In this document: positions 36,001-39,000 of the stretch, in pieces
Numbering within the stretch: the stretch's first letter is position 1
Layout: each line of letters starts with the position of its first letter
Source: Legionellales bacterium RIFCSPHIGHO2_12_FULL_35_11
Lineage (GTDB): Bacteria; Pseudomonadota; Gammaproteobacteria; Legionellales; Legionellaceae
Direction: 5' to 3'
Assembly: GCA_001803185.1 (NCBI GenBank)
Contig: MHBB01000138.1
Span: forward strand, 4,160 to 68,159
Length of the DNA: 64,000 nucleotides
Program-made: the position numbers

Positions 36001-39000
36001 ACAAGTTTTGCAGTCACCATTTTTAGGGTGATTGTTACCGAAAACTGTATTCTTCACTAAGACATCAAAGTTTTGTTTTATTTTGGAGTTCCAAATTTGG
36101 GTATCTCCAATTTTAGGGGCACCATCTTTCCCATTATTATGACAAACAGCACAGTTTGAATCGTAAATTTCTTTGCCAGTCTTAGGATGGAGTTTTGTTT
36201 TTTCTTTTTCGAGAGACAGTTTATCAGATCTAGACAGTGATTTATCTAGAATGTAATCAACAGCAGAAATAATGTCATTTTCAGAGCAAGTAACGCAAGC
36301 GCCTTTTATAGGCATGCTGTTATATCCGTAAATAACATTTTTATAAAGTTTTTCTATTCCTGCTTCTTTTAGACGGTTGGTCCAGTTGGCGCTATTGCCA
36401 ATAATAGGCGCTGTCATTTCACCATTTTGATGGCACTCTATACATGCGCTTAAATATACTTGGCGGCCACGGCTAAGTGAAGGTGGATTATTAGATGGAG
36501 GTACTCCTAAATACTCTTCACTTTCAACTGATTTTAGATAAATGCTAATTGCCATACGGTCATCATCAGTTAGGTATTTTAGGCTGTTATGTATAACTTC
36601 AGCCATCGGTCCTGCTACAGGTCCTGCATTATGAAGTAATTTATTTGATTTAAATATGTCAGCAACTTCTTGTTCTGATGCAGATTCAAGACCAAGCTTA
36701 GTAATGTTGGGAGCCCAAAAATCATCAATAAATGCGCCGGTTAGGTAATGTTTATCTTTGGTTGCACCAAGTGGGTTAAGGGGGGTGTGGCACATACTGC
36801 AATGCCCCAATCCATCAACTATATATCTACCACGGTTCCATTGCTCTGACTGACCAGGTACATACAGAGTATCTACTTTATTTGGGTAGAAAAATAATAA
36901 ATCCCACCCTAACAATGAAAACCTTGCGCCTGGCATATTAAATGGGAATGGCAGAGGAATATTTTGTTGATGCACTGGAGGGATGCTCATAAGATATTCG
37001 TATAAAGCTTCAGAGTCCTCTTCTGTTATATTAGCGAAATACACAAATGGAAAAACAGGGAAGTAGTTTTGCCCATCTGGATTTTTCCCATGTTTTAGAG
37101 CGTGTAAAAAATCATCTTTTGTCCACTTCCCTATACCTGTTTCTTTATCTGGTGTAATGTTTGGGCTATAAAAAGTGCCGAATGGGGTAGCAATAGGCAG
37201 GCCACCAGCATATGCAGGAGTTCTCTGTTTTACATTAGTGTGACAGGAGATACAGTCGCCAATTTTAGACAAGTATTCGCCTTTTTTAACAAGGTCAGCT
37301 TTGCTTTCATCAGTTGGTTTTGTTGCCGGATATTCTGGGTAGTAACCATCTACTAGTTTTAGTATTGGCGCAGACTCCTTATTTTCTTCTGCGAGAGTAG
37401 TCGTTGAATAAACTCCCAATAACACGATGGCACAGATACCTGCCAGCATATTCCTTGAAAAAACGCTCACACACCCTCCTAGTAAAAATAAAGTTCGCAT
37501 TTTATACCCATAGACATATAACTTGCAATAAATGTTTATGCTCAGCAACCTGTTTAAGGTTTATGTATACAGATCTTAGATTTTTATAAAGTTTCGATAA
37601 ATTTCAGCCTTAAATTAAGGAATCATCATGAGCTTAGTTTATGCAGTCGAACAGATCCTAAATAAAAAACATTAAAAATTAGAAAGGGTTAATCGGTGTG
37701 TCGCCAATTAACCCAGTGGAATGACACATAGCAAGTCCAACCTCGCATTAGAAGTATCTCAAAATCATTAATTTTTGTCAATGTTGTTCACATACTTGGG
37801 TGTGATTAAAACTGCGATCAATTGAACCTAGAAAAAGCAGTTGAGCTCTACTACGAATGCCCACTGCCATTAAGTTAAGGATTTTGTCATTCCCGCGAAG
37901 ATGGGAATCTATCCATAAAGTGGCACTGTGCCTGCTTAGAAATAGACGCCTTCGCGGGAATGACAGTGTTTCCTTAACTTAATGGTAGTGCTACGAATAC
38001 CCACTGCTTTTTCTAGGTTAAATTAAAGCTTTATTTTGATTTCTCTCCAATTCATAATTTATTGGTTTATTGATAATTAATTCCCCAGTCCCTTCTTCTA
38101 TTTTTAGGAGATGAGAGCAGTTGTTTAGCGTTGTTGTCCTATGTGCAATAATGAAAATGGTTAGATTATTATCTAGGTTATTAATTGAATGCATAACATT
38201 CTGTTCGGTTGCATTATCTAGAGCGCTAGTTGCTTCATCTAAACATAAGATCTGGGCATTTTTATATAGTGCCCTGGCTAATCCAATTCGTTGTTTTTGT
38301 CCGCCACTTAAACGAATACCTTTCTCGCCAACATTTGTTTGATATTGATTAACAGTTTTAATAATGAACTCATGCGCCTCTGCTTGTATAGCGGCTTTTT
38401 CTACACGTTGTAAGTCGATTTTTTCATTTGGTATACCGAAAGCTATATTTTCGGCGATACTAGTGTTTGCTAGAAAAATATTTTGTGGCACATGGGCAAT
38501 ATTTTTTTGCCATGCTCTGGAGTTTTGGGTACTTATTTCACAATTATCAACTAATAGCTTACCAGATGTCGGTTCAATAAGGCCCATAATAATGTCTAAG
38601 ATAGTACTTTTCCCACTGCCTGTTTGACCTATAATTCCAATTTTTGATCCTTTGGGAAAAGATAAATTTAAGTTTTGTAAAGTTTCAGATGAAGATGCAT
38701 GATATTTAAAACTTACATTTTGTAGTGTTATAGAGTCTTCTAATGATATTAGTTGAGTATTATTAATGTTATTTTCATTTATATGTTGGTCAAGTAATGT
38801 AAGAACATCTGATAAAGCCGCTTTATTACCAATGACTTCAGACCAATATCCGTAAATTTGTTGTGTTATTGGAAGAAGGCGTTGGGCACTAATTGCAAAA
38901 AATCCTAAAATTGGAAACGTATTTATAATATCATAATTATTGTGACTAGCAGATAAAATAAATACAGCGATGCCAATCATGGTAAATGATTCAATTAGAT

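What the first reader, a model, noticed from the sequence alone, without database searches (positions are those of the whole stretch)
37827..38017. Nested MITE: a 129-bp CACTGCC-family element inserted into a CTAG-TIR element with an 11-bp target duplication
The outer termini are at 37827-37840 and 38004-38017. The inner element (37862-37990) has ~39-bp TIRs (CACTGCCATTAAGTTAAGGATTTTGTCATTCCCGCGAAG and its complement). It is flanked by CTACGAATGCC (37851-37861) and CTACGAATACC (37991-38001). Removing the inner element and one duplicate restores a short hairpin element like the one at 21092-21134. This gives a relative order of two mobilisation events. It also shows the inner family transposes with an 11-bp TSD, the same length seen at 3060-3106.
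Basis: seen in the sequence. Interest (0 to 1): 0.65.

Follow-up and report, generated by a model that had tools for sequence, protein, structure and literature searches.

The report
One mobile mini-element inside another
A 129-bp non-coding jumping element of the IS4 type has landed inside a 51-bp hairpin-shaped jumping element just after a transporter gene's stop codon; this is a clean but ordinary case of nested bacterial MITEs, and the hairpin element turns out to be a repeated landing spot.

Summary
Window 37827-38017 is a 51-bp "mini" copy of a CCTAG-ended MITE family. This outer family has a canonical length of 178 bp and a 5-bp target duplication of the form WTNAW. A 129-bp MITE (37862-37990) has inserted into the mini copy and duplicated 11 bp (CTACGAATGCC / CTACGAATACC).

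- **Inner family.** Its ends (CACTGCCATTAAGTTAAG) are identical to those of a 1761-bp insertion sequence encoding an IS4-family DDE transposase. Of 94 MITE-sized relatives from many bacteria, 60 carry 10-12-bp flanking repeats (43 of exactly 11 bp), against 0.4 expected.
- **Empty form.** Un-nested 51-bp outer copies that are 50/51 identical to the predicted empty site exist elsewhere and hold the 11-mer once.
- **Hot spot.** Nesting recurs: 12 of 45 inner-element ends abut outer-arm sequence (0.5 expected). The same 11-mer is hit in both orientations.

- The direct repeat reads as 17 nt, because both elements carry CACTGC at the junction.
- The inner inverted repeat is in two parts (20 + 16 nt).
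- 61442-61619 is a canonical outer copy, not a nested one.

No autonomous transposase and no orthologous empty site were found. This is a new member of a known kind, of modest interest.

The parts
37822..37826 (.). Left copy of the outer element's 5-bp target duplication (TTGAA)
   Evidence: The family-wide duplication is 5 bp of the form WTNAW. Here TTGAA and TTAAA match at 4 of 5 positions.
37827..37850 (+). Outer MITE, left part: terminal repeat CCTAGAAAAAGCAGTTGAGCTC plus TA
   Evidence: It is identical to the left end of the 178-bp and 51-bp family members.
37851..37861 (.). Left copy of the 11-bp target duplication made by the inner element (CTACGAATGCC); this is outer-element sequence
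   Evidence: Un-nested 51-bp copies carry this 11-mer once.
37862..37990 (+). Inner MITE, 129 bp, IS4-type ends. Terminal repeats at 37862-37881 and 37971-37990; subterminal repeats at 37885-37900 and 37950-37965
   Evidence: Alignment to 134-bp relatives shows a 4-bp deletion and several transitions. The ends are identical to those of the IS in L097, whose transposase matches NF033592.
37991..38001 (.). Right copy of the 11-bp target duplication (CTACGAATACC; one G-to-A difference)
38002..38017 (-). Outer MITE, right arm (C + ACTGCTTTTTCTAGG)
38018..38022 (.). Right copy of the outer 5-bp target duplication (TTAAA). It contains the TAA stop codon of the ABC-transporter gene (38018-39805, minus strand)
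3060..3106 (.). Minimal inner-family element: a 25-bp palindrome (3071-3095) made of both termini joined at TTAA, flanked by a perfect 11-bp duplication CGGAGTAGGTC
6913..6997 (+). Truncated inner-family copy (left 85 bp, 96% identical to 37862-37946). The right end is lost, so no duplication can be read
61442..61619 (+). Canonical 178-bp copy of the outer family, not nested; flanks ATTAG/ATTAT
   Evidence: 93-97% identical to the Ga0155559 copies.
21092..21134 (.). 43-bp mini copy of the outer family with a perfect 5-bp duplication ATAAT
17930..17963 (-). Solo 34-nt outer arm (GCATTCGTAGTAGAGCTCAACTGCTTTTTCTAGG). It starts exactly at the boundary of the inner-element hot spot

Best explanation
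There were two successive transposition events.

**Event 1.** A 51-bp internally deleted copy of a CCTAG-ended MITE family inserted at a TTRAA pentamer that overlaps the stop codon of the ABC-transporter gene, duplicating 5 bp. The full-length form of this family is 178 bp.

**Event 2.** A ~134-bp MITE was then mobilised in trans by an IS4-family DDE transposase. Its ends (CACTGCCATTAAGTTAAG...) are those of an IS4-subgroup insertion sequence. It inserted into the loop of the hairpin, next to the right arm, with target cuts staggered by 11 bp. Repair of the stagger produced the CTACGAATGCC duplication.

The insertion is not fresh. The duplication differs at one base, one terminal repeat has a C-to-T change, and the copy carries a 4-bp deletion relative to its relatives.

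**Shown:** the anatomy, the family-wide 11-bp and 5-bp duplications, the existence of the empty 51-bp form, an autonomous IS4-type relative in another genome, and repeated use of the same target.

**Inferred:** cut-and-paste chemistry (by analogy with IS4-family members), and a transposase source in this genome.
For: - Anatomy.
- Inner-family flanking repeats: 60 of 94 are 10-12 bp and 43 are 11 bp, against 0.4 expected.
- Autonomous relative: L097:1-1761 has the same ends and a 450-aa ORF that matches NF033592 (IS4 family transposase, E 2.7e-62) and PF01609.
- De Palmenaer 2008 (PMC2266710) gives duplications of 10-13 bp for the IS4 subgroup and 10-12 bp for the IS231 subgroup. The paper says most IS4-family elements (all but the IS10, IS50 and ISPepr1 subgroups) have 5'-CA ends.
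- Outer family: 19 copies of 178 bp, 8 of 51 bp, and 37 of 52 with an exact 5-bp direct repeat (37 direct versus 2 inverted).
- Empty form: L153:2527-2577 and L161:5032-5082 are 50/51 identical to the reconstructed site.
- Independent nestings with intact duplications: L123:4364-4496 (ATTCGTAGTAG) and L149:8122-8255 (AGCATTCGTAG). The empty form of the latter is L174:2935-2993.
- Hot spot: 12 of 45 inner ends abut outer-arm sequence against 0.51 expected, P = 9e-14. The junction GGCATTCGTAG is used with the inner element in both orientations.
- Both families have Legionella relatives: L. massiliensis for the inner element (77% over the full length) and an L. adelaidensis plasmid for the outer (74%).
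Against: - No transposase gene for either family is in the window or in the roughly 524 kb of related loci (588 kb searched when the window itself is counted).
- No orthologous empty site could be examined. The nearest orthologue is 60% identical and its gene order differs.
- The repeat boundary is ambiguous over 6 further bases.
- Several related composites (L119, L167, L159) lack a duplication and have chimeric flanks. Recombination between copies therefore also reshapes these loci.
- The related loci were retrieved because they contain outer arms. This inflates the number of outer arms seen, although not their share of each locus.
Confidence: 0.88

Rival explanations
1. The nesting happened elsewhere. 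The 191-bp composite then moved to this site as a unit, using the outer element's intact terminal repeats and the outer family's transposase.
For: The composite keeps both outer terminal repeats and is flanked by a near-perfect 5-bp repeat, TTGAA/TTAAA. Outer-family members of 191-219 bp exist.
Against: No second copy of the same composite was found (same junctions, same inner orientation, same mutations). The other nested copies differ in host variant, in the position of the duplication, or in orientation. Only a small part of the genome was sampled.
Confidence: 0.08
2. The structure arose by recombination or deletion between separate copies of the two families, not by a simple insertion. The 11-mers are then leftovers rather than a target duplication.
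For: Related loci L119:792-922, L167:7820-7953 and L159:1784 have inner copies with chimeric flanks and no duplication.
Against: Here the two 11-mers match at 10 of 11 positions exactly at the element boundaries. Excision in silico restores a known 51-bp family member at 50/51 identity.
Confidence: 0.02
3. The region is a selected structured RNA or DNA signal at the 3' end of the transporter gene (a terminator, mRNA stabiliser or REP-like protein-binding site). The repeats reflect that function rather than mobility.
For: The transcript strand folds to -100 kcal/mol with z = -11.8. Outer arms sit at stop codons more often than control sites, 24% versus 4.3%.
Against: - Strong folding is automatic for nested inverted repeats.
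- The terminator scan does not call the element and instead finds a separate terminator-like hairpin at 37714-37686.
- There is no Rfam match.
- Both families carry target duplications of fixed length at many unrelated sites.

A secondary, co-opted role is not excluded.
Confidence: 0.02

Closest known systems
IS4-family insertion sequences (IS4 and IS231 subgroups) and their non-autonomous derivatives
   Same: - The inner element's ends are identical to those of L097, an IS that encodes an NF033592 IS4-family transposase.
- The duplication is 10-12 bp, matching the 10-13 bp (IS4 subgroup) and 10-12 bp (IS231 subgroup) in PMC2266710 Table 1.
- It has a CA end and fits the published end signatures: AA at positions 11-12 and TAA at 15-17 for IS231; WTW at 14-16 for IS4.
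   Different: - It is 129 bp long with no coding capacity.
- Its interior is unrelated to the interior of L097.
- The L097 transposase is under 45% identical to any plasmid-borne IS4 transposase.
- No paper containing the end sequence was found.
QMITE2 of Coxiella burnetii as a hot spot for IS1111 (PMC5896051)
   Same: - It is in the same bacterial order.
- It is a MITE of about 170-190 bp with full-size and small hairpin versions.
- It lies mostly just 3' of ORFs, sometimes overlapping their ends.
- It serves repeatedly as the landing site of another mobile element.
   Different: - The invader there is a full IS of the IS110 family (IS1111); here it is an IS4-type MITE.
- QMITE2 duplications are 7-11 bp, whereas the outer family here makes 5 bp.
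- Sequence relatedness could not be tested, because no QMITE2 sequence is held.
Insertion sequences that target REP or BIME palindromes (ISRm22 of the IS4 family; IS1397/ISKpn1; ISPpu9/10) (PMC1525189)
   Same: Across the inner family, 30% of reconstructed empty sites are at least 70% palindromic, against 0.25% of random sites. The duplication often forms the centre of a CCCACGC...GCGTGGG hairpin. ISRm22, an IS4-family member, is reported to insert only into REPs at palindromic sites.
   Different: Here the target is itself a MITE with its own target duplication, and the 11-bp site lies off the hairpin axis, next to one arm. The two duplications within the window are not palindromic.
REP/REPIN elements mobilised by RAYT transposases
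   Same: The outer family consists of short hairpins and solo arms scattered in intergenic DNA next to gene ends.
   Different: The outer family carries an exact 5-bp target duplication. From my own knowledge, RAYT-dependent REPINs do not make one. No RAYT gene was seen.

Membership tests
MITE (generic), inner element | Small, non-coding, with terminal inverted repeats | tested here: met
   129 bp; a 20-nt terminal repeat (19/20) plus a 16-nt subterminal repeat. It is too short to encode a transposase.
MITE (generic), inner element | Fixed-length target duplication at many unrelated sites | tested here: met
   60 of 94 copies have 10-12-bp repeats and 43 have 11 bp, against 0.4 expected. In the window: 10/11 at this site and 11/11 at 3060-3106.
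IS4-family derivative, inner element | Ends shared with an element encoding an IS4-family DDE transposase | tested here: met
   L097:1-1761 begins CACTGCCATTAAGTTAAGGA and ends ...CTTAACTTAATGGCAGTG. Its ORF matches NF033592 at 2.7e-62 (211 bits, cutoff 115) and PF01609.
IS4-family derivative, inner element | Target duplication of about one helical turn (10-13 bp for the IS4 subgroup) | tested here: met
   compared with PMC2266710 Table 1.
IS4-family derivative, inner element | A cognate transposase present in the same genome | tested here: inconclusive
   tblastn found none in the window or the related loci, but only 64 kb of this genome is available.
MITE (generic), outer element | Terminal inverted repeats plus a fixed-length target duplication, in many copies | tested here: met
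   52 paired copies in size classes of 178 bp and 43-52 bp; 37 have an exact 5-bp direct repeat. There are about 12 sites in the window.
Nested insertion | The duplicated target is host-element sequence that occurs once in un-nested host copies | tested here: met
   L153:2527-2577, L161:5032-5082 and six other 51-bp copies carry the 11-mer once. The reconstructed site is 50/51 identical to them.
Nested insertion | An empty host element at the orthologous site in a relative | not testable with these tools
   The only other contigs carrying this gene encode an identical protein. The next orthologue is 60% identical with different neighbouring genes.
REP/REPIN (RAYT-dependent), outer element | No target duplication; an associated RAYT gene | tested here: not met
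   An exact 5-bp duplication is present in 37 of 52 copies. That REPINs lack a duplication is from my own knowledge.
Intrinsic terminator | G+C-rich stem followed by a T run | tested here: not met
   The scan of 37400-38200 does not call the element. It calls 37714-37686 on the minus strand instead.

The most novel reading that the evidence does not exclude
The IS4-type transposase behind the inner family may recognise hairpin-forming or palindromic DNA, and uses the CCTAG-MITE hairpin as a sequence-specific landing pad. One 11-mer, GGCATTCGTAG, lies next to a GCAGTG that mimics the transposon's own end and is hit repeatedly in both orientations.

The inner MITE may also be a chimera. Its 90-bp palindromic core (GTCATTCCCGCGAAGGCGGGAATC...) occurs on its own in other bacteria, without IS4 ends. 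This hints that MITEs of this lineage form by enclosing resident palindromes rather than only by internal deletion of an IS.
Probability: 0.2. Interest if true: 0.5.

Novelty: new member of a known kind. Interest (0 to 1): 0.3.

Why it matters
- It gives a clear, dated order of two mobilisation events.
- It defines two apparently undescribed MITE families in Legionella-like bacteria.
- It shows that one conserved IS4-type end sequence has spawned MITEs across several phyla, all with an 11-bp duplication and a taste for palindromic targets.

Practically, these repeats break short-read assemblies. L002 ends inside the inner element. They can also serve as strain markers. None of this changes how transposition is understood.

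Tried and rejected
- **Orthologous empty site.** A search with the flanking ABC transporter found only identical copies, then 60% identity. The two nearest loci have extra genes between the transporter and cytochrome c genes. L184 holds neither family; L185 could not be scanned because the script failed on it.
- **Autonomous partner of the outer family.** No IS-sized pair of CCTAG ends with a matching duplication was found.
- **Transposase in the window or related loci.** None was found.
- **Rfam.** There is no match for the window or the region.
- **Literature search for the end sequence.** No paper contains it.
- **Link to Coxiella QMITE2.** No sequence is held in that paper's text or supplements.
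- **Plasmid search with the composite.** No match.
- **Horizontal transfer of the MITEs.** I considered this between the window organism and JGI set Ga0155559, whose elements are 93-97% identical. I dropped it because the two sets share almost no genes in the sampled DNA and have the same G+C content, so they may be the same or a close lineage.
- **61442-61619 as a second nested element.** I first read it that way. It is the canonical 178-bp form.

Full report
**1. The observation**

- CCTAGAAAAAGCAGT at 37827-37841 pairs with its complement at 38003-38017.
- Between them, 37862-37990 carries a 20-nt terminal inverted repeat (CACTGCCATTAAGTTAAGGA, 19/20 match).
- It also carries a perfect 16-nt subterminal inverted repeat (TGTCATTCCCGCGAAG). 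The two blocks are separated by unmatched TTT versus AACAC, so the '39-bp TIR' is in two parts.
- The flanking 11-mers, CTACGAATGCC (37851-37861) and CTACGAATACC (37991-38001), match at 10 of 11 positions. My arithmetic puts this at about 8e-6 by chance at fixed boundaries.
- The repeat runs on for six more bases (17 nt, 16/17), because the inner element and the outer right arm both begin with CACTGC.
- The inner terminus occurs 5 times in the window against 0.01 expected. The outer core occurs 16 times against 3.2 expected.
- The window is an ENA metagenome contig (ERZ27254756). An independent Logan assembly (L002) has the same right junction and breaks inside the inner element.

**2. The inner element is an IS4-family MITE with an 11-bp duplication**

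The hosts include Methylococcales, Thiotrichales and Beggiatoa, Legionella, Geobacter, Nitrosomonas, Caldilinea and others.

Most hits are 80-350-bp elements bounded by the same roughly 20-nt ends. Pooled with the related metagenome loci, 94 such elements could be scored.
- 60 have a flanking direct repeat of 10-12 bp with at most one mismatch, and 43 of these are 11 bp.
- Re-pairing left and right flanks at random gives 0.4.

One hit, L097:1-1761, has the same ends around a 450-aa ORF. That ORF matches NCBIfam NF033592 (IS4 family transposase, E 2.7e-62) and Pfam PF01609.

The published survey of the family lists duplications of 10-13 bp for the IS4 subgroup and 10-12 bp for the IS231 subgroup. 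It also gives end signatures that this terminus fits (PMC2266710).

The closest full-length relative of the window copy is in Legionella massiliensis (L030:1002-1136, 77% identity, with a 10/11 duplication).

In the window the family has three members:
- the copy under study;
- a truncated copy at 6913-6997;
- a 25-bp palindrome at 3071-3095 with a perfect 11-bp duplication. It reads as the two termini joined at a shared TTAA, which suggests a microhomology deletion of the whole interior (my inference).

**3. The outer element is also a real MITE**

A metagenome scan with the 22-nt arm returned 65 loci, nearly all from one JGI data set, Ga0155559, which has the same G+C content as the window.
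- Paired arms fall into sharp size classes: 19 copies of 178 bp, and mini forms of 43-52 bp, including 8 of 51 bp.
- 37 of 52 pairs have an exact 5-bp direct flanking repeat (ATTAT, ATAAT, TTAAA, TTTAA, TTCAA, TTGAA). Direct repeats outnumber inverted ones 37 to 2.
- The family therefore makes a 5-bp duplication of the form WTNAW.
- Window 61442-61619 is a canonical 178-bp copy (93-97% identical to the JGI copies), not a nested one.
- The 51-bp form equals the 178-bp form with a deletion between two ACTGC repeats (my reading).
- A 74% identical copy lies unannotated on a Legionella adelaidensis plasmid.
- No autonomous partner was found.

**4. The nesting**

Deleting 37862-37990 and one 11-mer gives CCTAGAAAAAGCAGTTGAGCTCTACTACGAATGCCCACTGCTTTTTCTAGG. 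L153:2527-2577 and L161:5032-5082 are 50/51 identical to it and hold the 11-mer once. The 11-mers are therefore not part of the outer element's own symmetry, and the inner element arrived second.

The outer element's own duplication here is TTGAA/TTAAA. Its right copy contains the TAA stop codon of the ABC-transporter gene.

The inner copy is old. It has one change in the duplication, one in the right terminus, and a 4-bp deletion plus transitions relative to the 134-bp consensus.

**5. The nesting is recurrent**

In the related loci plus the window, 12 of 45 inner-element ends abut outer-arm sequence, which makes up 1.1% of the DNA. The expectation is 0.51 and P = 9e-14.

Two further complete nestings have perfect 11-bp duplications:
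- L123:4364-4496 (ATTCGTAGTAG);
- L149:8122-8255 (AGCATTCGTAG), whose empty form is L174:2935-2993.

The junction GGCATTCGTAG recurs in the window, L159, L119, L135 and L167, with the inner element in both orientations. These are therefore independent hits on one target.

Other composites lack a duplication and have chimeric flanks, which indicates recombination between copies.

Across the whole inner family, 30% of reconstructed empty sites are at least 70% palindromic, against 0.25% of random sites. This agrees with reports that IS4-family members such as ISRm22 insert into REP palindromes (PMC1525189). It also agrees with the 'spectacular' target specificity noted for some IS4-subgroup elements (PMC2266710).

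**6. Mechanism**

The best-supported account has three steps.
- An IS4-family DDE transposase, supplied in trans, bound the two CACTGCC ends.
- It cut the target with an 11-bp stagger inside the loop of the resident hairpin element.
- Repair of the stagger duplicated the 11 bp.

The anatomy, the family statistics, the empty form and the autonomous relative are shown. The chemistry is inferred from the family. The transposase source in this genome is unknown.

The composite folds strongly as RNA (-100 kcal/mol, z = -11.8), but this follows automatically from nested inverted repeats. The terminator scan instead picks out a separate hairpin at 37714-37686. Rfam has no match.

**7. Comparison with what is known, and verdict**

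The nearest described parallel is Coxiella burnetii QMITE2. It is a MITE with full-size and small versions that lies 3' of ORFs and is a hot spot for IS1111 (PMC5896051). The invader there is a full IS110-family element, and sequence relatedness could not be tested.

The host organism is uncultured. Its transporter's closest named homologues are from Legionellaceae MAGs at 58% identity.

I rate this as a new member of a known kind. Its value is descriptive, and the hot-spot behaviour is the one feature worth an experiment.

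Noticed in passing
window 6494, 16374, 18397, 21092, 27359, 38017, 61619 (and loci L119-L183): Outer-family arms sit directly against ORF stop codons. In 24% of 134 arms, a stop codon of an ORF of at least 100 codons ends within 5 nt of CCTAG, against 4.3% of control WTNAW sites outside ORFs. The 5-bp targets (ATAAT, TTTAA, TTGAA, TTAAA) contain TAA or TGA, and in some cases the TAG of CCTAG is itself the stop codon.
   Followed up: partly
window 37885-37965; L092:1446-1530; L005:6756-6867; L022:21-44: The palindromic core of the inner MITE (GTCATTCCCGCGAAGGCGGGAATC ... 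and its complement) also occurs on its own in other bacteria, with no IS4-type ends within 60 nt. From memory, it fits the ATTCCC-N8-GGGAAT pattern of the Neisseria dRS3 repeat. The inner MITE may be a chimera.
   Followed up: partly
window 3071-3095: A 25-bp 'element' made only of the two inner termini joined at TTAA, with a perfect 11-bp duplication. It is probably a microhomology deletion of the whole interior. A similar 25-bp palindrome is at L092:2723-2747.
   Followed up: partly
window 6615-6997: The truncated inner copy at 6913-6997 overlaps the last 17 nt of a 104-codon ORF (6615-6929). The ORF's stop codon therefore lies inside the element, which may have replaced the gene's original 3' end.
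   Followed up: no
window 17930-17963: A solo 34-nt outer arm starts exactly at the boundary of the inner-element hot spot (GCATTCGTAG...), right after the TAA at 17927-17929 that appears to end an upstream plus-strand ORF (ORF not confirmed). It may be what is left after a deletion that removed a nested copy and the other arm.
   Followed up: no
window 37686-37714 (minus strand): A terminator-like hairpin, GGGTTAATTGGCGACACACCGATTAACCC followed by TTTCTAATTT, lies downstream of the composite. It is the more likely terminator of the ABC-transporter gene.
   Followed up: no
window 13720-13795: Another inverted repeat of about 26 nt (GGCGTGTAGGTTGGGCCTTGGCCCAAC ... GTTGGGCCAAGGCCCAACCTACGCC) lies in an intergenic region, about 120 bp upstream of an outer-family solo arm (arm at 13912-13933). 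It could be a third repeat family.
   Followed up: no
L119:751-957, L167:7820-7988, L159:1740-1850, L150:640-720: Composites of the two families that have no target duplication, chimeric flanks, or only a 23-38-nt stump of the inner element. These indicate recombination and deletion between dispersed inner copies.
   Followed up: partly
L158:2408-2560: The right flank of an inner copy reads ...CTCACTGCCATTA..., which is an 11-nt match to the element's own terminus spanning the duplication boundary. Together with GCAGTG next to the hot spot, this hints that the element inserts beside sequences resembling its own ends.
   Followed up: no
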